From NCBI GenBank assembly GCA_963848295.1, contig CAWKDB010000010.1, positions 3,360,001-3,424,000 of the forward strand: DNA of 64,000 nucleotides, in the 5' to 3' direction. This DNA comes from an uncultured delta proteobacterium. Its GTDB lineage: Bacteria; Myxococcota_A; Polyangia; Haliangiales; Haliangiaceae. The position numbers and the translations under genes are program-made. This document shows, one piece after another, positions 1-32,134 of the stretch. Numbering within the stretch: position 1 is the stretch's first letter; every line of letters begins with the position of its first letter. The notes under the pieces were generated by a model that was not told the DNA's origin, did not search any database, and saw only the letters and a list, made by a program, of their open reading frames with translations.

Positions 1-459
1 CTGGTAGACCCCATTCGAGTCGAACGGAGCGGTATCCGAGGCGTCGCCGGCGAGCAGATACGAGCCGTCGGACGCCTGTTGGTTCGCCGCGCTCAGCGCG
101 GTCTGGAACAACCCGGCGACCTGGACGCCGAGCGACGCGCGTTCGGCGGCGTTGTAGGTTCCCGAGGACGCCTGCACGGCGAGTGCGCGAGCCTGCGAGA
201 CCACGTCCGCGATCGTCGACAGCGCGCCATCGGTTTGTTGCAGCTGGTCGAGCGTCGTCGAGATCGCCTTACCGCCGCCCTGGCTGAGCATCTGGTGGAT
301 CTTGTCGCGCTGAGCCGTCGCCCATGCGACCGGATCGTCCGACGGCACCGCGACGCGCAGTCCCGAGGTGGCGACCTCGCTCGCCTCCGCGACCGCCGAC
401 TGCGCGCGGGCAGCGGCCTCGTTCGCGACGTCGACGATGTGAGTGGAGGTCACGCGCAT
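1..459 (-). CDS. flgL: Flagellar hook-associated protein 3 FlgL (partial, runs off window)
   Basis: Not in the ORF track. Manual translation from ATG at 459 gives MRVTSTHIVDVANEAAARAQSAVAEASEVATSGLRVAVPSDDPVAWA, a flagellin-N/FlgL-type SG.R...PSDDP motif. It follows flgK and has a GAGGA RBS. Confidence 0.85.
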   Translation of the reverse strand, partial: MRVTSTHIVDVANEAAARAQSAVAEASEVATSGLRVAVPSDDPVAWATAQRDKIHQMLSQGGGKAISTTLDQLQQTDGALSTIADVVSQARALAVQASSGTYNAAERASLGVQVAGLFQTALSAANQQASDGSYLLAGDASDTAPFDSNGVYQ

Positions 460-466
460 CGGGTCC

Positions 467-1828
467 TCATAGGTTCTGGATCAGCGAGCTCAACATGTCG
501 TCGACCGCCGAGACGAACTTGGTCAGCGCCGCGGTCGTGTTCTGGAACTTCGCGAGATTCGCCTCTTCCTCGTTCTCGTCGACGCCCGACAGCGAGTCCT
601 GGAGATCGCCGAGGTGGTCGGCCACGGCCTGGTCGGTCGTCGTACTGGCCTTCGCGTCAGCGACCTGGGTGCCGAGGCCGGTCGAGATATCGAGGGCGGC
701 GTCGGTGAGCGACCGCGTTCCCCCGCTCGCGACCTGCTGGCTCGATAGCGCAAACAGCGCCTGCGCGCCCGCGTTGCTACCGCTCGCGCCGCCGACCGCG
801 GCGGTGGCGAGCTGGTTGCTGTTGGCGGCGAGGCCGGGATCGAGCGTCAGCGCCGCCGCCGCGCCCGCGACCTGCGTGAGCGGGGTGAAGATGGTGCGAC
901 CCGAGACACCGTCGAGCCCGGCGTTCGCCGTCGACACCGCGTTGAAGCTCGTCGCGACGTCCGATGCGTACTGGTCGTACTGTGCGGCGATCGTCGTGAG
1001 CTGGCCGCGCACCGCGAGCTCGCCGCCGAGCGAGCCACCCGAGATCTGCGTGGTCACGTCGCGCGTGGTCGAGCCGAGCGTGACGGTGACATCGTTGAGC
1101 CCGGTCGTCGCGTCCGGCGTCGCTTGCATCGTCGCGGCCTGCTGGCCATCGACCAAGACGGCGCCACCGTCGAGGATGAACCGCATCTGTCCATCGCTGC
1201 CGATCTGAGCCTGGCCGCCGACGAGCTGTGCGAGCTGCTGGGCGAGCGAGTCGCGGCGGTCCTGCGCGGTCGGATCGGAGGACGTCGCGACCGCCTTGTT
1301 CGCCGCCGCGAGCTGGTTCGCCAGCGACGTCGCTTGCGTCGCGATGTCGGCGACCTGCTGGTCGGCCGAGCTCGTCGCGGTGGCGACCGTGCTCGCCGCC
1401 GAGTTGATCGAGCCGACGAACGTGCCGAGCGCCGCCACCGTGGCATCGCGCAGGCTCTTGTCGGTCGGCGACGCCGACACCTGGTCGAGGTCGGAGAACA
1501 CGTTCGCGAGCTGATCGGTGATCGACGGGCCGGCGGCGAGCGTGTCCTCGAGATCGGACAGCGCATCGCTCGTCGTCTGTGACCGGCTCAGCGAGCCCTG
1601 CGACGATCGGATCTGCGTGGACAGCAGCTCGCTCGCCGCTCGAGTCGGCGAGCCCGCTACGACGCCCCCGAGCGACGGAGGCCCGATCAGGCTGTCGAGC
1701 TGCACGCTCTCGCGCGAGTAGCCCTGCGTGTTCATGTTCGCGACGTTGTTCGTCGCGACCGCCACTCCACTGTTCTGCGCCGAGATCGCGCTCGCGCCGA
1801 GGTTGAGGAGTGACAGTAAGTCGGACAT
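467..1828 (-). CDS. flgK: Flagellar hook-associated protein FlgK
   Basis: Start trimmed to MSDLLSLL. N-terminal NNVANMNTQGYSRE and C-terminal SGVDENEEEANL motifs. Confidence 0.92.
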   Translation of the reverse strand: MSDLLSLLNLGASAISAQNSGVAVATNNVANMNTQGYSRESVQLDSLIGPPSLGGVVAGSPTRAASELLSTQIRSSQGSLSRSQTTSDALSDLEDTLAAGPSITDQLANVFSDLDQVSASPTDKSLRDATVAALGTFVGSINSAASTVATATSSADQQVADIATQATSLANQLAAANKAVATSSDPTAQDRRDSLAQQLAQLVGGQAQIGSDGQMRFILDGGAVLVDGQQAATMQATPDATTGLNDVTVTLGSTTRDVTTQISGGSLGGELAVRGQLTTIAAQYDQYASDVATSFNAVSTANAGLDGVSGRTIFTPLTQVAGAAAALTLDPGLAANSNQLATAAVGGASGSNAGAQALFALSSQQVASGGTRSLTDAALDISTGLGTQVADAKASTTTDQAVADHLGDLQDSLSGVDENEEEANLAKFQNTTAALTKFVSAVDDMLSSLIQNL

Positions 1829-1830
1829 GA

Positions 1831-2175
1831 CTAGTAGCGAGCGTGAAGTCGATGCGAGGTCGTTTCGGTCCGGCGCGCGTGGCGGTCGTAACCGGTGACT
1901 TCGCGGCCGAGCAGCGCTCGGACCGCGGCGGTCGCGGTCGCGGCGAGCATCGCGGTCGCGCGCGCTTCCGCACGGATCGCTTCGAACAATGCTTTGATCG
2001 CAGGCGACGGGTGCGCGGGTCGTATGCTCGCTAGCCGGTCGGCGACGAGTCGCTTGTTCTCGGACAGCCACGCGAGCTTCTGATGATCGAGCTTGGCGAT
2101 CGCTTTGCGCTCTTCGAGAAACAGAGCGCGCAGCTCTTCGCCGAGGGCACGCAGCTCGTCATCGGTTGCGTTCAC
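1831..2175 (-). CDS. FlgN-like flagellar export chaperone
   Basis: 114-aa helical protein (EERKAIAKLD...LSENK) in the flgM-x-flgK position. Confidence 0.65.
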   Translation of the reverse strand: MNATDDELRALGEELRALFLEERKAIAKLDHQKLAWLSENKRLVADRLASIRPAHPSPAIKALFEAIRAEARATAMLAATATAAVRALLGREVTGYDRHARRTETTSHRLHARY

Positions 2176-2453
2176 GAAGTCGCCCCGCGGACCGAGTCGT
2201 CATCGAGAATGCGCGATGCGAGTTGATCGAGATCGATCGGATACGTGCCGGTCTCGAGCTGCGTGCGGATCTTCGCGATCTTCGCGGTCACCGCAGCGTC
2301 ACTCTTGTCCACCTCACCCGTCGAGCTCGCCGCGGACGTCGCTGCAGGAGACAGCTCGACGATATCGGCGTTGGTTCCGCGGGCGCGCGGAGGCTGTGCG
2401 TCGCGGGGCTCTTGAGCACTGATCGGAACGACAACCTTGGGATCGATTCGCAT
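2172..2453 (-). CDS. flgM: Anti-sigma28 factor FlgM
   Basis: VELS motif and C-terminal KIAKIRTQLETGTYPIDLDQLASRIL. Confidence 0.9.
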   Translation of the reverse strand: MRIDPKVVVPISAQEPRDAQPPRARGTNADIVELSPAATSAASSTGEVDKSDAAVTAKIAKIRTQLETGTYPIDLDQLASRILDDDSVRGATS

Positions 2454-5021: not shown

Positions 5022-5689
5022 GGAGCAGCTCCGATCACGACCGTCGCTGGTGCAACCAATATGCCGTGCAGCAGGGTCTTGGTCGCGAGCAGCCGGACCG
5101 TCGCGGGCTCGCCAAAACGGGCAGCTAGCTCGAGCACGCCAGTGCCGCGAATCCGCAGGCCACCGCGACGGACGTCAACGCTGACGTCGGTGCCGCGGGG
5201 TAGCGGCGCGGGGAGCGAGACGTCTTGGGCGCCGATCGTCGCCCCGGCTTCGAGGTCGCGGGTGAGCGTTCCGCCCACCACTTCCGTCGCCGCATCATCG
5301 CCGACCGCGCGATGCTCGATCACGACATCGGCATCCGTGATCACCGAGCCGATCGGCAAGGCCGCGCGCATGACCGCCACCGCGACGACGTGCGCGATCG
5401 TGACCGGCACGTAGGCGACCCGGCCACGAACCCTGATCTTGATGCTCGGCCGGCCGGCGCGCAGGTCGCGCGGCGCTTCGACCGTGATCGAGCTCGGCGC
5501 GATATCGAGGTGCGCGAGCGCGGGCGGCACATAGATCTCGGCGACGCCGAACCCGGCAGGTAGCGACGGCTCGAGCCGCGCGCGAATCGCGTCGGCGATC
5601 GACTCGGCGTGGGCCGGCCGCGCTGTCGCCAGCGCGACCGCGGCGGTCGCGACGAGCACGAGCACCGCGGTGACGATCGTGCGCCTCAT
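5018..5689 (-). CDS. flgA: P-ring assembly protein FlgA (SAF domain)
   Basis: Signal peptide, SAF-like and ChapFlgA C-terminal pattern; lies between flgG and flgH. Confidence 0.8.
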   Translation of the reverse strand: MRRTIVTAVLVLVATAAVALATARPAHAESIADAIRARLEPSLPAGFGVAEIYVPPALAHLDIAPSSITVEAPRDLRAGRPSIKIRVRGRVAYVPVTIAHVVAVAVMRAALPIGSVITDADVVIEHRAVGDDAATEVVGGTLTRDLEAGATIGAQDVSLPAPLPRGTDVSVDVRRGGLRIRGTGVLELAARFGEPATVRLLATKTLLHGILVAPATVVIGAAP

Positions 5690-6471
5690 CGCAGCTGCGC
5701 CGTGTCGGACAGCATCTCGTCCGCCGCCTTGACGACGCGCGAGTTGACCTCGTACGCGCGTTGCCCGGCGATCAGGTCGATCATCTCTTCGACGACGTTG
5801 ACGTTCGAGACTTCGAGCATGCCCTGTTGGATCGTGCCGGCGCCGCCCTGGCCGGGCTCGCCGAGCACCGCGGTGCCCGACGCGGCGGTCTCCTTGAACA
5901 GCGTCTGGCCCTGGGCTGCGAGGCCGGCGGGGTTCGCGAACGTCGCGAGCTGGATCTTGCCGAGCTCGGTGGGCTGCGCCTGGTTCGGCACGGTCGCCGA
6001 CACCGTGCCGTCGGTCGCGATCGTCACGGTCTGTGCGTCGGGTGGGATCGTGATGCCTCCGACGATCTCGTAGCCGTCGGAGGTGACGAGCTTGCCCTCC
6101 GAGCTCATCTGCAGCGCGCCGTTGCGGGTGTAGGCGGTCGTCCCGTCGGGCTCTTGCACCGGCAAGAATCCGTTGCCCTGGATCGCGACGTCGAGCGTGT
6201 TGCCGGTCTGGTGCAGCTCGCCTTGCGACAGCTCGCGCGACGTGTTGACCAGCCGGGTCCCGAGGCCGATCTCGGTCGCGCTCGGCGCCATGGTGCCGTT
6301 GCCGGTCGGCGTGCCGGCGGCGCGCACCTGTTGATACATGAGGTCGGCGAACTCGGCGCGGCCTTTCTTGAAGCCGTTGGTCGAGACGTTCGCGATGTTG
6401 TTGGCGGTGACGTCCAGCTTGGTCTGCTGGGCTTCCATGCCGGATGCGGCGGTGGCGAGTGAGCGAAACAT
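5686..6471 (-). CDS. flgG: Distal rod protein FlgG
   Basis: ANNIANVSTNGFKKGRAEFADLMYQ and LEVSNVNVVEEMIDLIAGQRAYEVNS. Confidence 0.96.
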   Translation of the reverse strand: MFRSLATAASGMEAQQTKLDVTANNIANVSTNGFKKGRAEFADLMYQQVRAAGTPTGNGTMAPSATEIGLGTRLVNTSRELSQGELHQTGNTLDVAIQGNGFLPVQEPDGTTAYTRNGALQMSSEGKLVTSDGYEIVGGITIPPDAQTVTIATDGTVSATVPNQAQPTELGKIQLATFANPAGLAAQGQTLFKETAASGTAVLGEPGQGGAGTIQQGMLEVSNVNVVEEMIDLIAGQRAYEVNSRVVKAADEMLSDTAQLR

Positions 6472-6491
6472 GTTGGCTCCTGTGCTCCTGG

Positions 6492-7202
6492 TTATTTCGG
6501 TCCGCCGAGATCGCGCGCCGCGCGATCCTCGCAGTCGTGATAGCCCTGGATGATCTTCATCAGCGACTCGTAGGTGCGCGACTCCTTGACGAGCTCGACG
6601 ACGCCGCGCACGATGTTGACGTTCGAAGACTCGAGCATGCCGGACCGCACTTTCGGCGGGTCACCGGCTGCGGGCGCGCCGGACGCCGAGAACAGCGAGC
6701 TGCCTTCGCGCTTCATCTGATTCGTCGCGAACCGGGTGAGCGCGAGCTTGCCGAGCGGTTGGCCGTCGGCGGTGACCATCCCATCGATCCCGACCGTGAC
6801 CGACGTCGTGTTCGGCGGGACCGTGATCGGCCCGGCGTCGCCGAGCACCGGGTTGCCGTCGCCGGTGACGAGCTGGCGCTGATCGTCGAGCTGGAAGTTG
6901 CCGGCGCGGGTGTAGCGCGTGCCGTTGCTGGTCTGCACCGAGAAGTAACCGTCGCCGTCGAGCGCGAGGTCGAGCGGGTTGTCGGTCGGGGTCAGGGCGC
7001 CACCCTGCGAGTCGACGCGAGCGGTGAGCGCGCTGACCGATGCGACGTCGGCGGACTTCACCGTGCCGAGCGCCTCCTTGAACGTGATCCGATCGCCGTG
7101 GAACCCTGCGGTGTTCGCGTTCGCGATGTTGTTCGCGGTGGCGTCGAGCGCCTGCGAGGCGGCGACCGCGCCGGCCGTCGCGACGTAGATGCCGCTGCTC
7201 AC
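6492..7202 (-). CDS. flgF: Proximal rod protein FlgF
   Basis: ANNIANANTAGF, NPLDLAL.GDGYF, YTRAGNF and LESSNVN; upstream of flgG. Confidence 0.9.
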   Translation of the reverse strand: MSSGIYVATAGAVAASQALDATANNIANANTAGFHGDRITFKEALGTVKSADVASVSALTARVDSQGGALTPTDNPLDLALDGDGYFSVQTSNGTRYTRAGNFQLDDQRQLVTGDGNPVLGDAGPITVPPNTTSVTVGIDGMVTADGQPLGKLALTRFATNQMKREGSSLFSASGAPAAGDPPKVRSGMLESSNVNIVRGVVELVKESRTYESLMKIIQGYHDCEDRAARDLGGPK

Positions 7203-7927
7203 TGGGCTCCTGTCATGGCTTCGGATCCGATGATCTCGACGCGCAGGCGAGCGATCGCACGACCGTGGAGCTGACAGACGCGCGACACGGTCACGCGCAA
7301 CACCTGCGCGATCTCGGCGTAGGTGAGCTCTTCGTTGTAGTAGAGCGACAACACGAGCACGTCGCGTTGGTCGAGCTTGTCGAGCGCGGTGCGAATCTTC
7401 GACAGCGCCTGCAGCCGGCCGGCTTGCGCCTCGGGCGAGTGCTCGTCGCTGGTCATCATCGCGGCGGTGTTGTCGCCGGTCTCGAGCGCGCCGACCGTCA
7501 CATGGACGAGCTGTTCGAGGTTTGCGCGGTATTCGTCGATCGTCACGCCGAGTCGCTCCGCGACCTGCTCGTCGCTCGGCGGCATCCCGAGCTCGCGCTC
7601 GAGCTCTTGGATCGTCTGGCCGACCTTGCGCGCGAGGTGACGCACGCGCCGAGGCATGATGTCGCCGCGGCGGAGCTCGTCGAGCACGGCCCCGCGGATG
7701 CGCTTCTCGGCGAACGACAAGAACGGCTCGTTGCGGGTGTCGTCGTAGCGCTCGGCCGCCTCGGTCAGCCCGAGCATGCCGGCGGCGACGAGATCATCGC
7801 GGGTGATCCAATCGGGGCAACGGCGAGCCATGCGAAGTGAGATCCGCCGGGCGATCTCGATGTGCTCGGAGATCAGCCGATCGCGTTCGGCGTTGGGTCT
7901 CCGGTTTTGTGCAGCGTAAGCCTTCAT
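7199..7927 (-). CDS. fliA: RNA polymerase sigma28 factor FliA/WhiG
   Basis: Start trimmed to MKAYAAQ (ATGA overlap). RIRGAVLDELR and LSLYYNEELTYAEIA...SRVCQLH. Confidence 0.93.
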   Translation of the reverse strand: MKAYAAQNRRPNAERDRLISEHIEIARRISLRMARRCPDWITRDDLVAAGMLGLTEAAERYDDTRNEPFLSFAEKRIRGAVLDELRRGDIMPRRVRHLARKVGQTIQELERELGMPPSDEQVAERLGVTIDEYRANLEQLVHVTVGALETGDNTAAMMTSDEHSPEAQAGRLQALSKIRTALDKLDQRDVLVLSLYYNEELTYAEIAQVLRVTVSRVCQLHGRAIARLRVEIIGSEAMTGAQ

Positions 7928-8790
7928 CGAGAGCCTCCTTGAGCACGAGCGGGAACGCGCCACCACGAAGCCGATGGCGTTGGAGCGAGCGTGGCGAGCG
8001 TCCGGGTCAGCTGGCGGATCGCGCGCGCGGCGGGCGAGTCGGGTGCGTGGGCGAGCAGCGGCACGCCGATCTGCGCGGCCTCGGCGACCGCGGGATCGGC
8101 TGGAATCGGCGGCAACGCGGTGACCTCGAGATCGAGGAAGCGCGCGACGAGGGCACCGAGCCGGGCGACGAGCTCGTCGGCGTGGGCGCGCGAGCTGACG
8201 CGATTCGGCACGAGGTACGCGTGGCGCACGCCCTGCTCGGTCGCGAGCACCTTGAGACACGCGTACGCATCCGCGATCGACAGCGGCTCGGGGTTGACGA
8301 CGACGATCGCGTCGGTCGTGGCGCCCGCGAACATCGTCTGCGCCTGGCCGATGCCGGCGGCGATGTCGACGATCAGCGTGTCGAACTGCGAAGCGAGCAT
8401 GTCGACGAGGTCGAGCATGCGGCGCTGTACGCTCGGGCCGATCGTCGACAGCAAGTAGCTGCCGTTCAGCGCGGGCAGGAGGTGGATGCCGTGCGCGGCG
8501 AGCAACACGTCTTGCACCGGGGTGCCGCCGAGCGCGTCGAGGATGCTGCGTTCCGGCGCGACGCCGAGCAGCAAGTTGAGGTCGGCCATGCCGAGATCGG
8601 TGTCGACGACGAGCGTGCGCGAGCCGGTCTGCGCGTAGGCGAGTGCGAGGTTGACCGCGATCGTGCTCTTGCCGACGCCGCCTTTGCCACCGGCGACCGC
8701 GATCGCCCGGCGCGCGGGGGCCACGAACGTCGGTGGCTGGCTGCCGCCGCCCCCTCGAATCACACGCAATGTAGCTGCTTGGTCGGTCAC
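7924..8790 (-). CDS. flhG: MinD-like flagellar number regulator FlhG/FleN
   Basis: N-terminal DQAATLR; GGKGGVGKS; DTDLGMADL; PEPLSIADAY. Confidence 0.92.
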   Translation of the reverse strand: MTDQAATLRVIRGGGGSQPPTFVAPARRAIAVAGGKGGVGKSTIAVNLALAYAQTGSRTLVVDTDLGMADLNLLLGVAPERSILDALGGTPVQDVLLAAHGIHLLPALNGSYLLSTIGPSVQRRMLDLVDMLASQFDTLIVDIAAGIGQAQTMFAGATTDAIVVVNPEPLSIADAYACLKVLATEQGVRHAYLVPNRVSSRAHADELVARLGALVARFLDLEVTALPPIPADPAVAEAAQIGVPLLAHAPDSPAARAIRQLTRTLATLAPTPSASWWRVPARAQGGSR

Positions 8791-8802
8791 GTCGGCTCCT
8801 GA

Positions 8803-13003: not shown

Positions 13004-13018
13004 GGCGAGCGGAGTGAT

Positions 13019-13034
13019 TGCAACGCTCGCGCCG
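13019..13034 (-). promoter_or_regulatory. Putative sigma54 promoter of the flhB-flhA... block
   Basis: Minus strand cGGcgcgagcgttGCa (GG-N10-GC), 16 nt before the GTG start. Confidence 0.7.
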
Positions 13035-13076
13035 TCGCCAAGTCTGCGAGAATGCTCGCGATTGACGCGAGGCTGT

Positions 13077-13090: not shown

Positions 13091-13122
13091 ATCGTCGCGA
13101 GCCTCGGCTGACGGCCTCGAGG

Positions 13123-21995: not shown

Positions 21996-22609
21996 CGGTC
22001 GGCTCCATCGGCCGCGGTCGCGATCGCTTGGCGCAGCTCGGCGAGCCGCGCGGTCCAGTCGTGATCGATCTCGAGGCCGGCATTCCCGATGCGCAGCGAA
22101 TTCGCCGCGATCGCCGGGTCGGGCTCGACCGAGATCAGTGCGTCGCCCACCGCTGCGCGCAGCGCGTCGGCGTCCGCAGGGTTGCACTTCGCGATCGCAC
22201 CGGCACCATCGCCCGTGCGTTGCAGCCAACCGCGGATGACCGGCAGGAATCGATCCTTGGGCTCGAGCTCGCTATCGAGCCACGTCTCGATCACCGCGAT
22301 CGCCGCGTCGGCGATCAGCTCCGACGCCTTGCCGGTGTTCGCGCTGCGTTGGCGGTCGAGCGCTTCGATCGCCGCGGCGAGCTTCTTGCGGAGCTCTTCG
22401 GTCTCGCGCGTGCCTTGCGCGCGACCTTCTTCGATCGCGGTCGCCCGGAGCTGCTCGAGCTCGCGCAGCGTCGCGGGATCTTGGCCGAGCGCCGGGTACG
22501 GGCCCCACGGCGAGGTCGCGACCGCACCGCGTTGCGCGGGCAGCGTCGCGCCGAGCGAGCGCGTCGGCGACGCGAGCGCGGTCAGCCACGGCTGGATGTC
22601 GTCGCTCAC
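21992..22609 (-). CDS. fliH: FliH-like export ATPase regulator
   Basis: AxxxGxxxG repeats and a CNPAD motif; lies between fliG and fliI. Confidence 0.78.
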   Translation of the reverse strand: MSDDIQPWLTALASPTRSLGATLPAQRGAVATSPWGPYPALGQDPATLRELEQLRATAIEEGRAQGTRETEELRKKLAAAIEALDRQRSANTGKASELIADAAIAVIETWLDSELEPKDRFLPVIRGWLQRTGDGAGAIAKCNPADADALRAAVGDALISVEPDPAIAANSLRIGNAGLEIDHDWTARLAELRQAIATAADGADR

Positions 22610-23613: not shown

Positions 23614-25217
23614 TTGGCTCCCTTGGCTGCCGGCACGGGCTCGTGGAGCCACGCGGTCAGCACGCTCGCGGCGCGCGCGGCGTCACCGCGCACCGATTGA
23701 ACGACGCGATCGTGAACCGACGAGCCCGGTGGCAGGCCGGGCGGAGGCGAATCGAGCGACGGACCCTGATCGAGCACGCGCTCGAAGGCGGCGACCGGCG
23801 CGGGCAGCGCGAGCGGCGAGCTGCCGAGCTGCGCGAGTTGCCGCTGCTTCTTGCCGCGGCGGGCGAGCACGACGACGAGCGTGATCATGACGAGCAACGC
23901 TGCGCCGCCGCCGATCGCGAGTGGAATCAGCGGCAGCTCGGCCTTGGCCGGCGGCTGGTTCGCAGCGGCCGCCTCGGCAACCGCTTCCGCATCTTCGACA
24001 AACGGAATCGAGTGCAGCTCGATCTTGTCGCCGCGCGTGTCGTCGATGCCCGCGGCCTGGCGCGCGACCGCGGTGAGCTCGGCGAGCTCCTGCTCGGTGC
24101 GCGGGACGGGCTTGCCCTTCGCGTCGGTCTTGTAATCGACCACGACCGCGACGTGCAGGCGTTGTAGCTGCGCTTCCGGCGTCAGCGTCTGCCGCACGGT
24201 GTGCGTGACCTCGTAGTTCTTCGTCTCCTGCAGCCGCCCGTTCGGCGTACCGGGGGTCGTCGTGGCACCGGGAGCGCCCGGGAGGTTGCCGCGCGAGCCG
24301 GCGATGCCGCCGACCGACGAGCCCGCGTTGCCCATCGCATCGACGCCTTCGAGCGTGCGCGACTCGCTCCGCACCGCGGTGTGGTCCTTGTCGTAGACGT
24401 CCTCGGTCTCGCTGATCTTGCGCTCGTCGACATCGGCGGTCGCGACGACCGACACCTTGCCCGGGCCGACGACGCGTTCGAGCATCGTCCGCACGCGAGT
24501 CGTCACGTCGTGCTCGAGCTGGGCCTTGTGATCGATGCCGTTCGCGTCGTTCGAGTCGAGCAGGTTGCCGTGGTTGTCGACGATCACGACCGCGTCGGGC
24601 TTGAGGCCTTCGACACTCGCCGCGACGAGCTCGCGCACGCCGCGCACTTGCGACGCGGTCAGGACCTGACCGGCATGGAGGTGCAGCGCGACCGATGCCG
24701 ACGGCGCCTCGTCTTGTTCCTTGAACACCGAGCGCCGACCGAGCGCGAGATGCACGCGCGCGCCATCGACCTGAGCGAGCGCGGTGATCGAGCGAGACAG
24801 CTCGCCTTGCAGCGCGCGACGGAAGTTGACCTGCTCGGCGAAGCTCGACTGACCGAGGTTGTTGCCATCGAACAGCTCGAAGCCTTTGCCTGCGTGGGGC
24901 AGGCCCGAGCTCGCGGCGGCGGCGCGCGCTTCGTCGGCGCGATCGTCCGGGACTTCGACCTTGCCTTCGTGGAGGCGCGCTGGGATGTTGCGGCTCTGCA
25001 GCATCGCGTACATCTCTTGCGAGTCGTCGGGCGAGGCGCCATCGGCGACCGCGACCCAGGTGTCGTTGTGGTGCGCGAGCGTCGTGTAACCGACCCAGCC
25101 GATCACGCCGAGCACGACCGCGAACGCCGCGGTCTTGCGGCGCTTGCTCTGCCGCGCCCACAGGTCGCGCAGCTGCGCGAGCATGGCGACCAGACTTTGT
25201 GGAGAGGCGTCGGCCAT
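23610..25217 (-). CDS. fliF: MS-ring protein FliF
   Basis: GFELFD...SSFAEQVNFRRALQGELSRSI, ARVHLA, NYEV; two TM segments. Confidence 0.96.
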   Translation of the reverse strand: MADASPQSLVAMLAQLRDLWARQSKRRKTAAFAVVLGVIGWVGYTTLAHHNDTWVAVADGASPDDSQEMYAMLQSRNIPARLHEGKVEVPDDRADEARAAAASSGLPHAGKGFELFDGNNLGQSSFAEQVNFRRALQGELSRSITALAQVDGARVHLALGRRSVFKEQDEAPSASVALHLHAGQVLTASQVRGVRELVAASVEGLKPDAVVIVDNHGNLLDSNDANGIDHKAQLEHDVTTRVRTMLERVVGPGKVSVVATADVDERKISETEDVYDKDHTAVRSESRTLEGVDAMGNAGSSVGGIAGSRGNLPGAPGATTTPGTPNGRLQETKNYEVTHTVRQTLTPEAQLQRLHVAVVVDYKTDAKGKPVPRTEQELAELTAVARQAAGIDDTRGDKIELHSIPFVEDAEAVAEAAAANQPPAKAELPLIPLAIGGGAALLVMITLVVVLARRGKKQRQLAQLGSSPLALPAPVAAFERVLDQGPSLDSPPPGLPPGSSVHDRVVQSVRGDAARAASVLTAWLHEPVPAAKGAK

Positions 25218-25220: not shown

Positions 25221-25562
25221 TTACACCTGGGTGTTCATCAGATCGCGGTACGCTTCGAGCGCCTTGTTCTTGAGCGTCGTCGCGTAGCGCACGGCGATGT
25301 TCGCCTTCTCGGTCGCGATCATGACCTCGTGGATGCCCATCGACGGATCGCCAGCCGCGAACTTCTCGGCCGCGTCGGTCGCCTTGTGATCGAGCTCGCG
25401 CGCGTCGCTCAGCGCCTTGCCGAACGACGACGCGAGGTCCTCGGCGTTCACCTGCGGGGTCTGCTGCGTCGCGTCGGTCGTCGAGCCGGTCTTCTTCAGC
25501 TCGGTGGTCACGAGCTGGTCGAGCATCGGCGCTTGCGGCAGGTTGATCGGGGCGATCGCCAT
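25221..25562 (-). CDS. fliE: Hook-basal body protein FliE
   Basis: IHEVMIATEKA...KNKALEAYRDLMNTQV. Confidence 0.93.
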   Translation of the reverse strand: MAIAPINLPQAPMLDQLVTTELKKTGSTTDATQQTPQVNAEDLASSFGKALSDARELDHKATDAAEKFAAGDPSMGIHEVMIATEKANIAVRYATTLKNKALEAYRDLMNTQV

Positions 25563-25565
25563 GGC

Positions 25566-25991
25566 TTACTTCCCGATGCCGAGCGCGCTTTGCGCCATGT
25601 TGACCGCGGTCGACATCGACGTGATGCCGGCCTCGTAGGCGCGCGACGCGGTGATCATGTCGACCATCTCCTCGACCGGATTGATGTTGGGATACGCGAC
25701 GTAGCCCTGCGCGTTCGCTTGCGGGTGGCCGGGATCGTATTCCATGCGCGGCGGCGACGGGTCCTGCGCGATCGAGCTGACCGAGACGCCGCGCACCGAC
25801 TGCTGGAACGGCGTGCCTTGCGTGCCCGGGACGTCGACCGCCGACAACACGACATCGCGCCGCTTGTACGGTCCGCCGCCGTCGGCTTGCGTCGTCTGCG
25901 CGTTCGCGAGGTTCGACGCGGCGACGTTCATCCGGGTGCGCTCGGCCGACAAGCCGGACGCGGACACTTCCATGGCGGTGAAGAAATCCAT
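25566..25991 (-). CDS. flgC: Rod protein FlgC
   Basis: SASGLSAERTRMNVAASNLANA, YDPGHPQA..GYV.YPNIN and EMVDMITASRAYEA. Confidence 0.96.
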   Translation of the reverse strand: MDFFTAMEVSASGLSAERTRMNVAASNLANAQTTQADGGGPYKRRDVVLSAVDVPGTQGTPFQQSVRGVSVSSIAQDPSPPRMEYDPGHPQANAQGYVAYPNINPVEEMVDMITASRAYEAGITSMSTAVNMAQSALGIGK

Positions 25992-25999
25992 CGTCGACC

Positions 26000-26380
26000 T
26001 CAGGTGCCGTCCCCGGCGCAATACCGGAGCAAAGCGATGCGGCGCGAGACCAGCTCGGCCGACGTCGAGTAGCGGACGCGGTTCGCATCGATCTTCGCCA
26101 TCTCGCGCTCGAGCGAGACCGCGTTGCCGTCGGGGCTCGACAGCTTGCCGCCGTCGTCGAACGTCGTGACGTAGTCGCCGTCCTCGGCGCCGCTGTCGAT
26201 CTGGTTCGGGTTCGTGATCGCCATGCTCGTGCCGTCGGCCGCGGGCTTGCGCTCGAGGTCGAGAGGGCGATATCCAGGCGTATCGATATTCGCGATGTTG
26301 CCGGCGAGCACCGTGTGCCGCTCGCGGTGGAACGACAGCGCCGCCCCGAGCTTGTCGATGGTGGAAAAATCGGCGGGCAC
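26000..26380 (-). CDS. flgB: Rod protein FlgB
   Basis: NIANIDTPGY...D and DGNAVSLEREM. Confidence 0.94.
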   Translation of the reverse strand: MPADFSTIDKLGAALSFHRERHTVLAGNIANIDTPGYRPLDLERKPAADGTSMAITNPNQIDSGAEDGDYVTTFDDGGKLSSPDGNAVSLEREMAKIDANRVRYSTSAELVSRRIALLRYCAGDGT

Positions 26381-26392: not shown

Positions 26393-26408
26393 AGCAAGTC
26401 GCGGGCCG
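26393..26408 (-). promoter_or_regulatory. Putative sigma54 promoter of the flgB operon
   Basis: Minus strand cGGcccgcgacttGCt, 13 nt before the GTG start. Confidence 0.72.
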
Positions 26409-26484: not shown

Positions 26485-27312
26485 GTGGTCGATTCAGCTT
26501 CCGTGGCTGACCAGATCTCGCAGGCGGTGTTCGGGCTGCTGTTCGAGAACACCTCGGAGGCGCTGTTCATCGTCGACCGCACGACCGGTCGTGTCGTGTC
26601 GGCCAATGTGCGCATGAGTGAGATGCTCGCGCGCGAGCCGAGAGAGCTCGTCGGTTCGACCGTGGAGCAGCTCCAGCACGAGGCGATGCGCGACGTGTCG
26701 CTGCCCGGCCATTACGAAGACGTCGAGCTCGCGCGCAGCGATGGCTACCCGGTGTTCGTCACGCTCAACGTCGCCCACGTCGACCATCCCGCGCACGGTG
26801 CGCTCGCGGCTTATGTCGCGCGCGACACGACCGAGCGTCGCTTGCTCGAGCAAGAGCTCCTCGCGAAACACTCGGCGCTGTTCGCGGCGTACGCCGACCT
26901 CGAACGCGCGTACGAGCAACTGCATACGACGAAGCAGGAGCTCGAGGATCGCAACCGCGAGATCGCGCTGCTGGCGTGGCGGGCCGCGGTCGGCGAGCTC
27001 GTCGCCGGGATCGCGCATCACCTCAACAACCCGGTCGGCGCGCTGTCGAGCACGCTGCGCCGGATGGCGCTCGTCGCCGCCGGCGGGCCGAAGATCGACC
27101 CGAGTCGAGCGGGGCCCGAGCTCGAACGACTGGTGGTGCGCGCCACGCAGATCGCGACGCGGATCGAGTCGAACGTGAACGCGATCGTCAAGGCGAGTCG
27201 CTCGGCCACCGCGGCCGGCTCGCAGCGCCTGGAACTGCCTCCGGAGCTGTCGTCGGTGCTGTCGACGTTCTCGGAACGACTCGACGACATCCCCACGAAG
27301 GACCCCTCGTAA
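26485..27312 (+). CDS. PAS-domain protein with HisKA/DHp region but no ATPase domain
   Basis: PAS (LFENTSEALF...ARDTTERR), coiled coil and H-box GELVAGIAHHLNNP. No N/G1/G2 boxes before the stop. Start may be the GTG at 26503. Confidence 0.8.
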   Translation: MVDSASVADQISQAVFGLLFENTSEALFIVDRTTGRVVSANVRMSEMLAREPRELVGSTVEQLQHEAMRDVSLPGHYEDVELARSDGYPVFVTLNVAHVDHPAHGALAAYVARDTTERRLLEQELLAKHSALFAAYADLERAYEQLHTTKQELEDRNREIALLAWRAAVGELVAGIAHHLNNPVGALSSTLRRMALVAAGGPKIDPSRAGPELERLVVRATQIATRIESNVNAIVKASRSATAAGSQRLELPPELSSVLSTFSERLDDIPTKDPS

Positions 27313-27325
27313 TGTTGAGCAAATC

Positions 27326-28801
27326 GTGAAGACCGCGCGGATTCTCGTCGTCGATGATGACGATCACGTTCGCGACGCACTCGTCGACGAGCTGTCGGAG
27401 CAATATCGCGTCGAAGCGGTCGGCTCGGGCGGCGAAGCATTCGACTGCCTCGCGACCAATCAGTACGACGTGATCATCTCGGATCTCAAGATGCCCGACC
27501 ACGACGGCATCGAGGTCCTCGAGTTTGCTCGCCAGCACCAGCGCGACGTCGTGCGCGTGCTGTTGACCGGATATCTCGACGAGCGCGCGCACCGCGCGCT
27601 GCTCACACCCGATGCGCCGTACAAGGTCGGCAAGCCTTGGCACGACGAGATCGAGGTCGTGGTTCGCCGCGGCCTCGAGCAACGCGATCTCGCTCGCCGG
27701 TTGTCGGCGTCGGTCGAAGACGCGCTCAGCCTCAACACGTTCGACGAGGAGCTCGCAGCTACGCGTACTCCTCTCGAGCTCAGCGAGGTCGTCGTGCGGC
27801 GCGCGCTCACCGTCGAAGGTGTCGGGGCGTGCGCGACCGTCGTGCGCGGTGACACCGGCGAGCACCCTTTCACCGGCGGCGCGGTGCCGCGCGACGGCAC
27901 CGGCTGGTACGTCGACCTACCGCTCGATGGCGAAGGCGAGCTCCGCTTGCGCGCGCGCGGCATCGGCGAGAGTGCGCGCCAGCTGCTCAGCTACATGGCG
28001 CATCGCGCTCAACGCCGCTGCGGCGTGCTCGAGGCGCGCGTGTCGTCGGTCCAGCAGCTCGTCGGGCCGGGCTCTCGCATGAACCAGTTGATGCGGCAGG
28101 CGACGCTCGGGGCGCTGACCTCGTCGCTGCTCCACGACGTGTCATCGATGATGCAGACGCTGTCGGTGGCGCTCGCCGATGTCACCGCCCTCGCCGCAGA
28201 AGGCGCGACGCCGATGTTGACCGAAGCGATCGCGGAAGCCGGTGCCGCCGGCGAGGAGGCGATCCAGCTGTTCGTCCAGATGCGCAAGTTCATCCGCGAC
28301 GGCGAGGTCGCGCTGCGGCGGGTGCGCGCGGATCGACTCGTGTCGCGGGCGGTGCGGCTCGCCGGTGGCTACGTGCGCGAACGCGCGCAGCTCCGTGTCG
28401 GCGAGCTCCCGGTCGTCGACGTTCCGGTCGCCGAGCCGCTGTTCCTGCAGGTGCTCGTGAACCTGCTGCGTAACGCCGCGAATGCGTCGCCGCGCCAAGG
28501 CATCGTCGATCTGCGCGTCAAGCACACCGAGACCGAGGTGATCTTCACCGTCGTCGACGACGGCCCGGGCGTCGCGCCCGAGATCGCCGACTACATGTTC
28601 GAGCCGTTCGCGAGCACGACTCACGGCGGCACCGGCTTGGGTCTCGCGATCTCCGCGTACGTCGTGCAGTTGCTCGGCGGCCGGATCAACTACCGGCGCG
28701 ATGCCGACCGCGGCGCTTGTTTCACGGTCTCGTTGCCGCTCACGAGCTCGGACGACACGCCGACCGGCAAGCTCGCTCGCGCGGGCACGGTCGGCGACTG
28801 A
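27326..28801 (+). CDS. Hybrid response regulator / histidine kinase (REC-HisKA-HATPase)
   Basis: ILVVDDD...ISDLKMP...KPW receiver; atypical H-box LLHDVSS; NLLRNA, DDGPG and GTGLGL boxes. Confidence 0.88.
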   Translation: MKTARILVVDDDDHVRDALVDELSEQYRVEAVGSGGEAFDCLATNQYDVIISDLKMPDHDGIEVLEFARQHQRDVVRVLLTGYLDERAHRALLTPDAPYKVGKPWHDEIEVVVRRGLEQRDLARRLSASVEDALSLNTFDEELAATRTPLELSEVVVRRALTVEGVGACATVVRGDTGEHPFTGGAVPRDGTGWYVDLPLDGEGELRLRARGIGESARQLLSYMAHRAQRRCGVLEARVSSVQQLVGPGSRMNQLMRQATLGALTSSLLHDVSSMMQTLSVALADVTALAAEGATPMLTEAIAEAGAAGEEAIQLFVQMRKFIRDGEVALRRVRADRLVSRAVRLAGGYVRERAQLRVGELPVVDVPVAEPLFLQVLVNLLRNAANASPRQGIVDLRVKHTETEVIFTVVDDGPGVAPEIADYMFEPFASTTHGGTGLGLAISAYVVQLLGGRINYRRDADRGACFTVSLPLTSSDDTPTGKLARAGTVGD

Positions 28802-29673
28802 TCGAGCACCGACAGGAACACCTTCGACTGCTCGAGTTGCCTGCGTGTGCGGTCGCACAGGTCTTCGAGCTGCTTGCCGGTAAACCCGTTGTCCGCGAGC
28901 ATCGGCGCGAGCTCGTGGTCGCCGTCCTCGCAGCCATCGGAGGTGCCGAACGTCGTCGCGCACAGCTGCGACACGTAGTCCGAGCACGCGACGATCTCGG
29001 TGATCGAGCGCAGCGGGTGGGTGAGCCGATTTCGGACCTCGGGCTTGTGGATCGTGTGATGGCGCTCGATCGGCGTCGCGAGCGTGACCGGGAACCGCCA
29101 ATGCTTCGCGAGCAGCGAGCCGACCCGATCGTGCGAAGGCAGGTCGTGGCGCGCCTCGGCTTCGTGCATGCCGATGCCCTCGGATTTCATCGTGGCGTGC
29201 GCCGCGGCGAGTCGTTCGGGCTCGAGCTTCGCGAGCGCGATCTTGCCCATGTCGTGCAGCAGCCCCGCGGTGAAGCATGCACCGGGGTCGGCGAGCTTGA
29301 GCTCGTTCGCGAGCTCGCGCGCCGCGGTAGCGACGGTGAGCGAGTGTAGCCAAAGCGCGCGTACGTCGAACCCGCCGCCCGTGTCGAGGACGTCGAGCAC
29401 CGAGATGCTCAGCACGAGCTGATACAGCGTGTTGAACCCCACGAACGGGATCGCGCGGGCGACGTCGGACACGCCGCCGGGAATGCCGAAGTACGGCGAG
29501 TTGACGAGCCGGAGCAGCTTCGCCGAGGTCGCCGGATCGGTGCGCAGGATGTCGGCGACCTGCTGGACCGTGACCTGCTTCGAGTGCACGACCTCGCCGA
29601 TGCGCAATGCGACGATCGGCAGGGTCGGCAAGCTGTCGAGAGCGCGAGCGATACGTTCGGTTTCTTGGCCCAT
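28690..29673 (-). CDS. HDOD domain protein
   Basis: LPTLP...DPATSAKLLRLVNSPYFG, LWLHS, AGLLHDMGK and W.FP. Start trimmed to MGQETER. Confidence 0.92.
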   Translation of the reverse strand: MGQETERIARALDSLPTLPIVALRIGEVVHSKQVTVQQVADILRTDPATSAKLLRLVNSPYFGIPGGVSDVARAIPFVGFNTLYQLVLSISVLDVLDTGGGFDVRALWLHSLTVATAARELANELKLADPGACFTAGLLHDMGKIALAKLEPERLAAAHATMKSEGIGMHEAEARHDLPSHDRVGSLLAKHWRFPVTLATPIERHHTIHKPEVRNRLTHPLRSITEIVACSDYVSQLCATTFGTSDGCEDGDHELAPMLADNGFTGKQLEDLCDRTRRQLEQSKVFLSVLDQSPTVPARASLPVGVSSELVSGNETVKQAPRSASRR

Positions 29674-29948
29674 CACGGTCCTCCGTCGAGTTGCGCGTCG
29701 ACGGCAGCGTCGACGGATTCGATCGCGGCATCGCTGCCGGCATCGAGCGGCCCGCCGTCGCTCGCGTCCACGCCGGCATCGGGGACGCCGAGGTCGTTGC
29801 GCTCGTGGCAGCTGCCGTCGTTCCAGCACACGTCCCCGTCGTCGCAGTCGCTGTTGCGCGCGCAGGCCGCTTGGCCGCAGCCGGCGACGCCGAGCGCCCA
29901 GCACAGCTCGATGACGAGGAGCGCGATCGTGCGCGGCTCAAGGCGCAT
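29673..29948 (-). CDS. Small Cys-rich putative lipoprotein
   Basis: Lipobox VAGC; CARNSDCDDGDVCWNDGSC; acidic DAG repeats; overlaps both neighbours. Confidence 0.65.
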   Translation of the reverse strand: MRLEPRTIALLVIELCWALGVAGCGQAACARNSDCDDGDVCWNDGSCHERNDLGVPDAGVDASDGGPLDAGSDAAIESVDAAVDAQLDGGP

Positions 29949-30435
29949 CGAACACCATGCTCATGACGAGCTGCGCCTGCATCACGGTATGGCCCGACGG
30001 CAGGTCGTCGCCCGCGAAGTACGCGGTGACCTCGGCCGAGCCGCAGCCCTGCATGTTCGCGGCGACGCGCTTGCACGTCCCGGCGCTCACGACCCCGCCC
30101 CACAGCGTGTAGGGCTTGAAGATGCGCACGCCTCCGCCGGCGAGCCGGACCTTACCGACGAGCAGGCGCACGCCGGCGACCGCGCCGACGCTGCTGCGAT
30201 CGAGCGTCTCGATCAACATGCCGCCGTAACCGTAGACCAGCGGGTCCTCGTTGAACGCGACCGAAGCGGTGCCCGAGAACGTCAGCGGCGAGCTGCGTGT
30301 CGATGGCATGCCATCGCCACCGCCGACCGAGATGCCGTAACCGAGCCGGAGCTCGGCCTCCCACAGCGATTCGGCGTGCGCGCTCGAAGCGAGCCCCGCC
30401 ATCAGGAGAACTCCGAGCGTCAGAGCGAGTCGCAC
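29938..30435 (-). CDS. Small secreted, probable outer-membrane beta-barrel protein
   Basis: Signal peptide (AHA-E), alternating beta-strand pattern, Phe near the C-terminus. Confidence 0.6.
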   Translation of the reverse strand: MRLALTLGVLLMAGLASSAHAESLWEAELRLGYGISVGGGDGMPSTRSSPLTFSGTASVAFNEDPLVYGYGGMLIETLDRSSVGAVAGVRLLVGKVRLAGGGVRIFKPYTLWGGVVSAGTCKRVAANMQGCGSAEVTAYFAGDDLPSGHTVMQAQLVMSMVFDAP

Positions 30436-30447
30436 GCAGCTCGTAAA

Positions 30448-30463
30448 GGCAAGCGGCGTGCCG
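30448..30463 (-). promoter_or_regulatory. Putative sigma54 promoter of the OMP-lipoprotein-HDOD operon
   Basis: Minus strand cGGCACGccgcTTGCc, near-consensus, 13 nt before the GTG start. Confidence 0.8.
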
Positions 30464-30489
30464 CGGCGGAGCGCAGCGGTTCTAGCGAG

Positions 30490-31278
30490 TTACTGGTGCA
30501 GCTCCTTCACGAGCGCGCCAGAATTGGCGACGCGCACCAAGATCGACAGCCGGCGGTTCTGCGGCGCCATCGGATCGGTCTTGACGTACAGCTGTGACGA
30601 CCCGCGCGCGAATACACCGGCGATCTGCGCGCCAGGTACGCCGGCTCCCTCGAACACCTCGCGCGCTTTGGCGGCGCGCTGATACGAGAGGTCCCAGTTC
30701 GATAACTTCGCGCCCGCTGCAAACGGCCGCGCATCGGTGTGGCCGTTGATCTCGAGCGGCGCCTTCGTCGCGGCGAGCATCGGCGCGAGCGCGCGCAAGA
30801 AGCGTTCGAGCGGTTCCTTGAGCTTGGCCGACGACACGTCGAACAGCAGGCCCTTGCCATCGTCGACCGCTTCGATCAACACGCCATCGGAGGTGACCTC
30901 GACGTGGACGTTGCGAATGACGTCGGCGAGCTCGGCGTCGACTGCGGCGAGGCGCGCGAGCGAGTCCTTGAGCTCGTGCGAGATCGTGTCCATCGACTCT
31001 TGCCCGGGCGGCGGCGGGGTCGGTGCCTCTTCGATCACCGACGGCGTGACCTGCGCAGCCTTGTTCATCGCGAGATCGCCGGTCGGCAAGATGCCGGTGC
31101 GGAAGTACTCCGAGATCTCTTTGCGGCTCGCCGCGTCGGTCGACGCGAGCAGCCACATCACCATGAACAACGCCATCATCGCGGTGACGAAGTCGGCATA
31201 CGCGACCTTCCACGCTCCGCCGTGGTGACCGTGGCCACCGTCGACCTTCTTGATGACTCTGCGCCGCGCGGCTTCCAT
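30490..31278 (-). CDS. motB: Stator protein MotB
   Basis: HHGGAWKVAYADFVTAMMALF with the conserved Asp; OmpA-like GHTD, NWDLSYQRA and NRR. Confidence 0.95.
   Translation of the reverse strand: MEAARRRVIKKVDGGHGHHGGAWKVAYADFVTAMMALFMVMWLLASTDAASRKEISEYFRTGILPTGDLAMNKAAQVTPSVIEEAPTPPPPGQESMDTISHELKDSLARLAAVDAELADVIRNVHVEVTSDGVLIEAVDDGKGLLFDVSSAKLKEPLERFLRALAPMLAATKAPLEINGHTDARPFAAGAKLSNWDLSYQRAAKAREVFEGAGVPGAQIAGVFARGSSQLYVKTDPMAPQNRRLSILVRVANSGALVKELHQ
30516..30529. promoter_or_regulatory. Candidate enhancer site inside the motB 3' end
   Basis: CGCCA-gaat-TGGCG palindrome, 53 nt upstream of the -24 GG. Confidence 0.5.
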
Positions 31279-31279
31279 C

Positions 31280-32134
31280 TCAGCTGCCCTTGATCGATTG
31301 CAGGGCCTTGTCGACGTCGGCGAAGCTCGGCCGCTCGTCGCTGAAGATCTGCTTGCGGCCGAACTCGACCGCGGTCGGCGGCGCGACGCCACGCGCCGAC
31401 GCGATCACCGCAGCCTTGATCACTTGCAGGAAGCGCAGCTGGTGCACCTCCTGCGTCTCGGCGTTGTTCGCGAGCGGCGACAGCACGCCGTAGCACATCA
31501 GGATGCCGAGGAACGTCCCGACGAGCGCGGCCGCGACATGGTGGCCGATCTCGGCCGGCGGCGCATCCATGTGTCCCATCGTCACGATGATGCCGAGCAC
31601 GGCGGCGACGATGCCGATGCCGGGCAGCGCGTCACCGACGGTCTTGACCAGGCCGGTCGCGAGATGGCCCTCGGCCTTGAGCGTGTCGATCTCGGCGTCG
31701 AGCAATGACTCGAGATCGTCCGGAGAGATGCCGTTGACGATCTGTTGCAGCGCCTCGGCGAGATACGTCCGGGCATGGTGTTGCTTCGCGACGCCGGGGT
31801 ACTTCTTGAAGATGTCGGACTTCGCGGGCTCGTTGACGTGTGCCTCGAGCGCGAGCACGCCTTGCCGGCGCGCGAGCATGAACAGCTCGTACTGACACTT
31901 GAGCAGATCGAGGTAATCGGCCTTCTTCGGGATCGCATCCTTCATCGCAGTCTTGAACGCGGCGATCACGCGCTTCTTCATCATGCCGGGCGAGCTCGTG
32001 ATCAACGTGCCGACCGCCGCCCCGAGGATGACGACGAACTCCGACGGCTGGAGCAGCACGCCGAAGTGGCCGCCGGCCATCGTGAAGCCGCCCGCGACGG
32101 CACCGAATACGAGCAGGACTCCAAGCATGTTCAC
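31280..32134 (-). CDS. motA: Stator protein MotA
   Basis: QPSEFVVILGAA.G, GDALPGIGIVAAVLG, AALVGTFLGI and AVEFGRK. Confidence 0.95.
   Translation of the reverse strand: MNMLGVLLVFGAVAGGFTMAGGHFGVLLQPSEFVVILGAAVGTLITSSPGMMKKRVIAAFKTAMKDAIPKKADYLDLLKCQYELFMLARRQGVLALEAHVNEPAKSDIFKKYPGVAKQHHARTYLAEALQQIVNGISPDDLESLLDAEIDTLKAEGHLATGLVKTVGDALPGIGIVAAVLGIIVTMGHMDAPPAEIGHHVAAALVGTFLGILMCYGVLSPLANNAETQEVHQLRFLQVIKAAVIASARGVAPPTAVEFGRKQIFSDERPSFADVDKALQSIKGS

What the first reader, a model, noticed from the sequence alone, without database searches (positions are those of the whole stretch)
1..32134. Intact flagellar system in a probable myxobacterium
Seen: 32 contiguous, mostly translationally coupled genes for MS/C rings, export gate, rod, L/P rings, hook, hook-filament junction, FlhFG and FliA/FlgM, plus motAB. 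Key residues are intact (FlhB NPTH, FliI Walker A, FliG EHPQ/MFxF and charged helix, MotB Asp). The same contig carries myxobacterial hallmarks (MYXO-CTERM-like tail, Hanks kinase, double-FHA membrane protein, TSP3-OmpA), with no visible compositional break or mobile element. Established: cultured myxobacteria are described as non-flagellated gliders, and the order flgBC-fliEFGHIJK-flgDE-fliMNOPQR-flhB / flhA-flhF-flhG-fliA-flgFGAHIJMNKL resembles the Geobacter-type deltaproteobacterial arrangement. Inference: a vertically retained flagellum in a swimming-capable myxobacterial lineage or life stage. Flagellin and fliD/fliS are not in the window, and I cannot check whether this lineage is already reported as flagellated.
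Basis: partly seen in the sequence, partly recalled or inferred. Interest (0 to 1): 0.85.

Follow-up and report, generated by a model that had tools for sequence, protein, structure and literature searches.

The report
Complete flagellum in a gliding myxobacterium
An uncultured myxobacterium, from a group described in reviews as lacking flagella, carries an intact, native set of flagellum genes beside its gliding genes, as do over four in ten related genomes, so many myxobacteria likely swim as well as glide.

Summary
In detail: 32 flagellar genes plus motAB with intact key residues. Flagellin, cap, FliS, FliL and pseudaminic-acid genes lie just outside the window. The host is a Kofleriaceae-type myxobacterium (RpoB 93-97% to records so titled) that also keeps gliding genes. 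The cluster is native: codon use matches the flank (r 0.995), dN/dS 0.10, trees largely follow RpoB. It is not unique: FlgI occurs in 167 of 401 class and 181 of 401 phylum genomes. Precedent exists: Anaeromyxobacter's cluster and swimming (PMC2330069), and flagellar FliOPQR tabulated for UBA2376 and Labilithrix (PMC12403147, Dataset S2). So this is a new member of a known kind; the prevalence is what my nine searches did not find stated. Swimming and expression are untested. Side finding: four same-genus genomes lost rod, hook, rings, filament, stator, FliG's torque domain and FlhB's NPTH but keep the export gate, an independent flagellum-to-export-module reduction.

The parts
1..459 (-). flgL, 5' part; gene ends at G000:C10:3359578. 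Beyond it, outside the window: fliC (C10:3358668-3359510, 280 aa), fliD, fliS, pseC, pseG-like, flhG-like, maf-like, Pse methylase, pseI, fliL, response regulator, kinase, RR-HK, two sigma54 activators, second fliA
467..1828 (-). flgK hook-filament junction
   Evidence: TIGR02492 above cut-off
1831..2175 (-). flgN-like chaperone, named by position; no family hit
2172..2453 (-). flgM anti-sigma28
   Evidence: TIGR03824, PF04316
2468..3238 (-). flgJ: rod-binding domain fused to an M23 peptidase
   Evidence: PF10135 and PF01551
3235..5689 (-). flgI (P ring), flgH (L ring), flgA
5686..7202 (-). flgG and flgF rod genes
   Evidence: TIGR02488, TIGR02490 above cut-off
7199..9900 (-). fliA, flhG, flhF
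   Evidence: TIGR02479 and TIGR03499 above cut-off; flhG is MinD-like and named by position
9897..15936 (-). export gate flhA, flhB (NPTH), fliR, fliQ, fliP, fliO
15933..17152 (-). fliN and fliM (C ring)
17236..20266 (-). flgE hook, flgD hook cap, fliK (weak PF02120 hit)
20263..22609 (-). fliJ, fliI ATPase, fliH
22606..25217 (-). fliG (N, M and C domains) and fliF MS ring
25221..26380 (-). fliE, flgC, flgB
26394..26408 (-). sigma54-type GG-N10-GC box upstream of flgB (predicted promoter)
   Evidence: pattern in 6 of 9 loci, background 0.03 per window; RpoN present
26485..28801 (+). PAS protein and receiver-histidine kinase, kept next to flgB in relatives
28690..30435 (-). HDOD protein, 91-aa putative lipoprotein, 165-aa secreted protein; HDOD and the 165-aa gene travel with motAB in relatives
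30490..32134 (-). motB and motA stator
32330..33250 (+). Ser/Thr kinase divergent from motA; a kinase sits beside motA in 3 of 4 relatives where motA was in view

Best explanation
This is a complete, native flagellar gene cluster in a Kofleriaceae-type myxobacterium that also keeps gliding genes, and it likely builds a rotating polar flagellum for swimming between surfaces. Shown: all structural classes are encoded (MS and C rings, export gate and ATPase, rod, L and P rings, hook, junction, one 280-aa flagellin, cap, MotAB) and are under purifying selection. Inferred from known flagellar biology: sigma54 with the neighbouring activators would start the basal-body operon at flgB; after hook completion FliK and FlhB would switch export, FlgM would leave and FliA would turn on fliC; FlhF/FlhG would place and limit the flagellum at a pole; Pse enzymes and the Maf-like protein would glycosylate flagellin; an ion flux through MotAB would turn FliG. 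With only 3 chemoreceptor hits, steering is probably weak, which fits dispersal better than fine chemotaxis. Inferred history: flagella were present in the ancestor of the family and probably of the class, and were lost many times, including in most cultured fruiting genera.
For: Gene set and residues. No frameshift in any of the 32 genes or motAB, while the same assembly has gltC split over two frames. dN/dS 0.099 over 17 genes against L032, range 0.03-0.25. Codon use r 0.995 to the flank. Same gene order in genus, family and order relatives and shared flanking regulators. RpoB and FlhA identities fall together over 18 named genomes. FlgGHIKL versus RpoB trees for 54 genomes: 23 supported splits shared of 38 and 33; G000 nests in its genus in both. 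All same-class FlhA sequences in the FlhA tree form one clade (0.999) apart from 17 outgroups. FlgI in 30 of 60 genus, 47 of 97 family, 167 of 401 class and 181 of 401 phylum genomes; 164 of the 167 also have FliG_M. FlgI-negative genus members are scattered in the RpoB tree while g25, g29, g33 outgroups are positive. GltC-like genes in 41 of 41 genus genomes, flagellated or not. Swimming precedent in Anaeromyxobacter strain K (PMC2330069).
Against: No expression, filament or swimming was observed. In Anaeromyxobacter 2CP-C swimming is 'not commonly observed' despite the genes. G000 has 3 MCP hits and 3 chemosensory clusters; the one linked to flagellar genes in relatives has no CheR, CheB or single-domain CheY here (genome 85% complete). 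G000's own fliC and flgM lack the strict sigma28 pattern; 0 of 15 fliC and 6 of 17 flgM rows match, two flgM rows being identical. Descent is not purely vertical: 4 of 38 supported flagellar splits conflict with RpoB; f14-g96 and f29 join G000's family and f12 falls outside the class; phylum-level FlhA is not resolved as one clade. Trees are FastTree on one marker and within-genus nodes are often weak. Glt hits are below NCBIfam cut-offs.
Confidence: 0.72

Rival explanations
1. The flagellum is built but serves mainly adhesion, surface sensing or prey contact, or is almost always silent, so the cells remain gliders in practice.
For: Few chemoreceptors across flagellated genus members: median 3, range 1-10, n 24, against median 1, range 0-8, n 17 in FlgI-negative ones. 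Rare swimming in Anaeromyxobacter 2CP-C. Labilithrix luteola, a cultured species, has flagellar FliOPQR in Dataset S2 and my search listing showed no paper on its flagella.
Against: Stator and the FliG torque domain are intact, and these are what the reduced sister clade lost. Several relatives carry CheA-CheW-MCP-CheR-CheB clusters on the flagellar contig, in G212 right after fliS.
Confidence: 0.2
2. The cluster is decaying towards an export-only module, as in the four reduced relatives.
For: The reduced state exists in the same genus; FliH, FliK, FlgA, FliR and FliG score below NCBIfam or Pfam cut-offs.
Against: All axial genes are present and unbroken; dN/dS for flgE, flgF, flgG, flgH, flgI is 0.04-0.17; FlhB keeps NPTH.
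Confidence: 0.05
3. The block is a recent horizontal acquisition or a chimeric join of a flagellated organism's DNA into a myxobacterial contig.
For: Tetranucleotide distance at the 95th percentile of 249 windows; some within-phylum tree conflicts.
Against: Closest FlhA relatives are records titled Kofleriaceae; junction genes are shared with relatives; codon use matches; 30 of 60 genus genomes have FlgI.
Confidence: 0.03

Closest known systems
Flagellar cluster of Anaeromyxobacter dehalogenans 2CP-C (Thomas et al. 2008, PMC2330069; passages read)
   Same: One large flagellar cluster with motAB and fliC in a myxobacterium; argued to be inherited, with order close to Desulfuromonas; swimming seen in strain K.
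   Different: Another class (Myxococcia). That paper found no fliJ, flgN, flgA, flgJ or fliK and found a che cluster with four MCPs inside the locus; here fliJ, flgA and flgJ have family hits, fliK a weak one, flgN is named by position, no che genes lie inside the locus, and Pse/Maf genes do.
Flagellar FliO with FliPQR in Haliangiaceae UBA2376 and J016, Labilithrix and many uncultured Polyangia (PMC12403147 Dataset S2; rows and parts 368, 370, 371 of 400 read)
   Same: Same family; one listed contig is my locus L027 (FlhA 72%, RpoB 89% to G000).
   Different: A table of four export genes, not discussed for this group in the passages seen; it cannot tell a whole flagellum from the export-only form found here.
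Myxococcal non-flagellar T3SS ('Myxo' system, Abby and Rocha 2012, PMC3459982; passages)
   Same: Homologous export gate; G000 has a separate SctV-like gene at C10:4726408-4728264.
   Different: That system lacks FlgBCDEK, FliEG, FlgH and MotAB; all are present here, and the two FlhA/SctV genes are far apart in the tree.
Zodletone Myxococcota MAGs (Murphy et al., 10.1101/2021.07.06.451402; one passage)
   Same: 'Flagellar assembly' listed for uncultured Myxococcota.

Membership tests
Bacterial flagellar system | MS ring and C ring (FliF, FliG with C domain, FliM, FliN) | tested here: met
   FliM by fold
Bacterial flagellar system | Export gate and ATPase (FlhA, FlhB with NPTH, FliPQR, FliHIJ); FlhA scoring as flagellar, not SctV | tested here: met
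   FlhA 776.6 on TIGR01398 against 553 on TIGR01399; motifs
Bacterial flagellar system | Rod, hook, junction, L and P rings (FlgBCFG, FliE, FlgDE, FlgKL, FlgHI) | tested here: met
Bacterial flagellar system | Flagellin, cap and chaperone (FliC, FliD, FliS) | tested here: met
   just outside the window
Bacterial flagellar system | MotAB stator with conserved charged residues | tested here: met
Bacterial flagellar system | Expression, filament assembly and rotation | not testable with these tools
   needs cells or RNA data
Bacterial flagellar system | Coupling to a CheA/CheY pathway | tested here: inconclusive
   FliM N-terminal LLDNEELEAI resembles the CheY site (recalled motif); cluster C10:4879-4886 kb is flagellum-linked in G212 and G019 but lacks CheR, CheB and a lone CheY here
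Myxococcal non-flagellar T3SS | Absence of FlgBCDEK, FliEG, FlgH and MotAB | tested here: not met
   all present; criterion from PMC3459982
Lateral flagellum (Laf type) | LafA and LafU as best-scoring families | tested here: not met
   flagellin 299 on PRK12802 against 203 on LafA; MotB 181 on PRK09041 against 122 on LafU; none above cut-off; flhF and flhG present
Kofleriaceae / Haliangiales (Myxococcota) | Housekeeping marker nearest to that family | tested here: met
   RpoB 93-97% to 7 records titled Kofleriaceae, 89% to the UBA2376 record, 62-65% to Desulfobacterota-type records; one marker only
Kofleriaceae / Haliangiales (Myxococcota) | Glt gliding gene cluster | tested here: inconclusive
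   gltC-TPR-TPR-cglF-gltG order on the same contig, all below Myxococcus-trained cut-offs
Kofleriaceae / Haliangiales (Myxococcota) | Fruiting-body and spore genes | not tested
   no search run

The most novel reading that the evidence does not exclude
Flagella are the ancestral and still common state of myxobacteria: about 45% of species-level genomes keep them next to the gliding engine, and the non-flagellated picture is an artefact of which genera were cultured. Within this one genus every stage is preserved: the whole motor (G000 and about half the genus), total loss, and a clade of four genomes (G224, G318, G035, G001) that deleted rod, hook, rings, filament, stator, FliK, FliG's torque domain and FlhB's cleavage site but kept MS ring, ATPase, export gate and FliA/FlgM. 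That clade would be a young, independent replay of the step from flagellum to non-flagellar type III secretion.
Probability: 0.5. Interest if true: 0.78.

Novelty: new member of a known kind. Interest (0 to 1): 0.52.

Why it matters
Reviews state that myxobacteria lack flagella (PMC6060248) or list only pili and gliding (PMC13104615). If the genes work, many uncultured myxobacterial predators can cross water films, which changes models of how they find prey and disperse, and suggests liquid or motility-based enrichment for groups that resist plate isolation. A cultured test case may exist: Labilithrix luteola has flagellar FliOPQR. The reduced sister clade would make the flagellum-to-secretion transition testable against intact close relatives.

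Tried and rejected
No RNA holder listed for the fliC region. DNA contigs of run X1 match both sides of the flgB-motA junction without differences at depth about 3-6, but no piece spans it and X1 may be the source sample, so I do not count it. The strict sigma28 pattern failed for fliC (0 of 15) and for G000's flgM. A search for lone CheY genes gave one weak candidate at C2:1149021-1149374. No NCBIfam MYXO-CTERM hit for the tail at 33836. The Geobacter gene order itself was not tested; only two Syntrophus-type loci show the same backbone. Supplements of PMC11937823 gave no 'flagell' hit in the text held, so I cannot say whether its expressed flagellins are myxococcal. PMC12199754 has no 'Myxo' in its main text; PMC13445942 has no 'flagell'; PMC10576062, PMC11821767, PMC11613949 and PMC12397197 mention flagella only in references or for M. 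xanthus. Two look-ups in earlier findings were blank. Rows dropped: 6 of 60 sampled genomes had no RpoB match or only a short one and G563 had too few flagellar genes, leaving 54 with G000; family f10 and f12 FlhA were outside the fetched stretches and are missing; G367 was left out.
Full report
Observation. The window is G000:C10:3360001-3424000 of a 7.78 Mb, 11-contig genome, 85% complete, 2.4% contaminated. Family scans confirm 32 minus-strand genes from flgB to flgL and motAB 4 kb upstream; flgN has no family hit and is named by position; 21 of 31 junctions overlap. FliM has no Pfam middle-domain hit, but its model from an 18-sequence alignment matches full-length Salmonella FliM.

Host. 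RpoB is 93-97% identical to seven records titled Kofleriaceae and 62-65% to Desulfobacterota-type records; FlhA identity falls in step. The genome behind L027 (RpoB 89%) is listed as Polyangia, Haliangiales, Haliangiaceae, UBA2376 in Dataset S2 of PMC12403147, so I read the tool's unnamed class as Polyangia and its phylum as Myxococcota; this is an inference. The same contig carries a gltC-TPR-TPR-cglF-gltG cluster, below cut-offs and with gltC split over two frames, and a separate SctV-like gene.

Native and maintained. GC is flat. Tetranucleotide distance is at the 95th percentile of 249 windows, but synonymous codon use of 16 flagellar genes correlates 0.995 with 15 flank genes. Genus, family and order relatives have the same gene order and share the flanking PAS/kinase, motAB-HDOD and fliL-kinase-sigma54 modules. 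dN/dS against L032 is 0.099 over 17 genes. For 54 genomes, trees of FlgGHIKL and RpoB share 23 supported splits of 38 and 33, with 4 conflicts: f14-g96 and f29 flagella join G000's family and f12 falls outside the class. Same-class FlhA forms one clade against 17 outgroups; the phylum is unresolved. So descent is mostly vertical with some exchange inside the phylum.

Prevalence. FlgI was found in 30 of 60 genus, 47 of 97 family and 167 of 401 class genomes (at least 85% complete) and in 181 of 401 phylum genomes (at least 90%); 164 of the 167 also have FliG_M. These are draws, kin are not independent, misses in incomplete genomes do not show absence, and the class tallies include two unpublished genomes (G010, G367) as negatives. 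FlgI-negative genus members are scattered among positives in an RpoB tree with weak inner nodes, and the family outgroups are positive, which fits repeated loss. GltC-like genes occur in 41 of 41 genus genomes tested, so flagella add to gliding and do not replace it.

Mechanism. Shown: the parts list and its conservation. Inferred from known flagellar systems: a sigma54 start at flgB (box in 6 of 9 loci, background 0.03; RpoN present), FlgM/FliA control of fliC, polar placement by FlhF/FlhG, Pse glycosylation, ion-driven MotAB rotation. Against a rich chemotactic life: G000 has 3 MCP hits and 3 che clusters; flagellated genus members have a median of 3, non-flagellated 1. The cluster at C10:4879-4886 kb has orthologs beside the flagellar genes in G212 and G019 but no CheR, CheB or lone CheY in G000. 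I put swimming, probably for dispersal, at 0.72 and a silent or adhesive role at 0.2. Nothing here shows expression or motion.

What is known. PMC2330069 (passages) reported the Anaeromyxobacter cluster, swimming in strain K and vertical descent. 10.1101/2021.07.06.451402 (one passage) lists flagellar assembly in uncultured Myxococcota. 10.64898/2026.06.16.732483 (two passages) calls Myxococcota a motile phylum. PMC11937823 (passages) reports flagellins expressed in Bdellovibrionota and Myxococcota MAGs without separating them. Dataset S2 of PMC12403147 (six Haliangiales rows and three of 400 parts) gives flagellar FliO with FliPQR for 4 of 6 Haliangiales, Labilithrix and Anaeromyxobacter dehalogenans, and none for Haliangium ochraceum, Nannocystis, Plesiocystis, Sorangium, Polyangium, Chondromyces, Minicystis, Sandaracinus or the named Myxococcaceae isolates in the part read. 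PMC6060248 still states that myxobacteria lack flagella. Nine searches (listings, with passages of 15 papers) found no paper describing a whole flagellar cluster in Kofleriaceae or its prevalence in the phylum; most subscription journals are not in the library and bioRxiv supplements were closed, so such a statement may exist.

Side finding. G224, G318, G035 and G001 form one clade (RpoB support 1.0). In 0 of 4 were flagellin, the rod domain or MotA found, nor FlgI. Their loci read PAS-kinase, fliF, fliG, fliH, fliI, fliJ (three genomes; G001's contig ends in fliF) and fliM to flhA, flhG, fliA, flgM, flgN, flgL-like. FliG lacks its C domain in 3 of 3; FlhB's NPTH is APGE in two and cut off in one. 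Their FlhA nests within this family's flagellar FlhA, far from the SctV-like gene. They are 86-93% complete; FlhA diverges faster than in intact relatives, so slow decay is not excluded. Only 5 of 234 FlgI-negative class genomes had a strong FliG_M hit, so the form is rare. An earlier finding, e1-5285239, describes a shaft-less base in another lineage that keeps the stator; I did not test it.

Verdict. Interest 0.52; the bold reading, flagella as the common myxobacterial state with a young export-only offshoot, 0.78 if true at probability 0.5.

Noticed in passing
L256, L257, L298 (G035); L258, L299 (G001); L290-L293 (G224); L294-L296 (G318): Same-genus clade with a flagellum-derived export-only module: rod, hook, rings, filament, stator, fliK and flhF gone, FliG without its C domain, FlhB without NPTH, but FliA, FlgM, FlgN and an FlgL-like gene kept. 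Deserves its own study.
   Followed up: partly
G051 and G134: Two other class genomes with a strong FliG_M hit and no FlgI; possible further reductions or assembly gaps.
   Followed up: no
L148, L149 (G195, G237) and L156 (G147): Flagellar genes of f14-g96 and f29 group with G000's family against RpoB: likely whole-cluster transfer inside the class.
   Followed up: partly
window 2468-3238: FlgJ joins a rod-binding domain to an M23 peptidase instead of the usual glycosidase (usual form recalled); kept in relatives.
   Followed up: partly
L115:2497-5674 and L112:2463-5461: A three-gene unit (RR-histidine kinase, Ser/Thr kinase with an extra N-terminal domain, receiver protein) occurs twice: beside fliL and beside a chemosensory cluster; the flagellar copy survives in the reduced clade.
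   Followed up: partly
L114:11408-13264: SctV-like gene standing without other recognisable T3SS genes among the neighbours scanned.
   Followed up: no
L110:17491-18964: gltC split over two frames in G000, whole in most relatives; probably an assembly indel.
   Followed up: partly
window 29673-30435: Two small secreted proteins without family hits between motB and the HDOD gene; the 165-aa one is conserved with motAB and has a sigma54-type box upstream.
   Followed up: partly
window 40510-41211: Collagen-repeat protein upstream of an ftsE-ftsX-M23-S41 protease run.
   Followed up: no
window 45310-49265: Double-FHA membrane protein next to a TraB-like OmpA protein.
   Followed up: no
L294-L295 (G318): Several tandem fliA-like pieces in the reduced locus; G001 also has two.
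   Followed up: no
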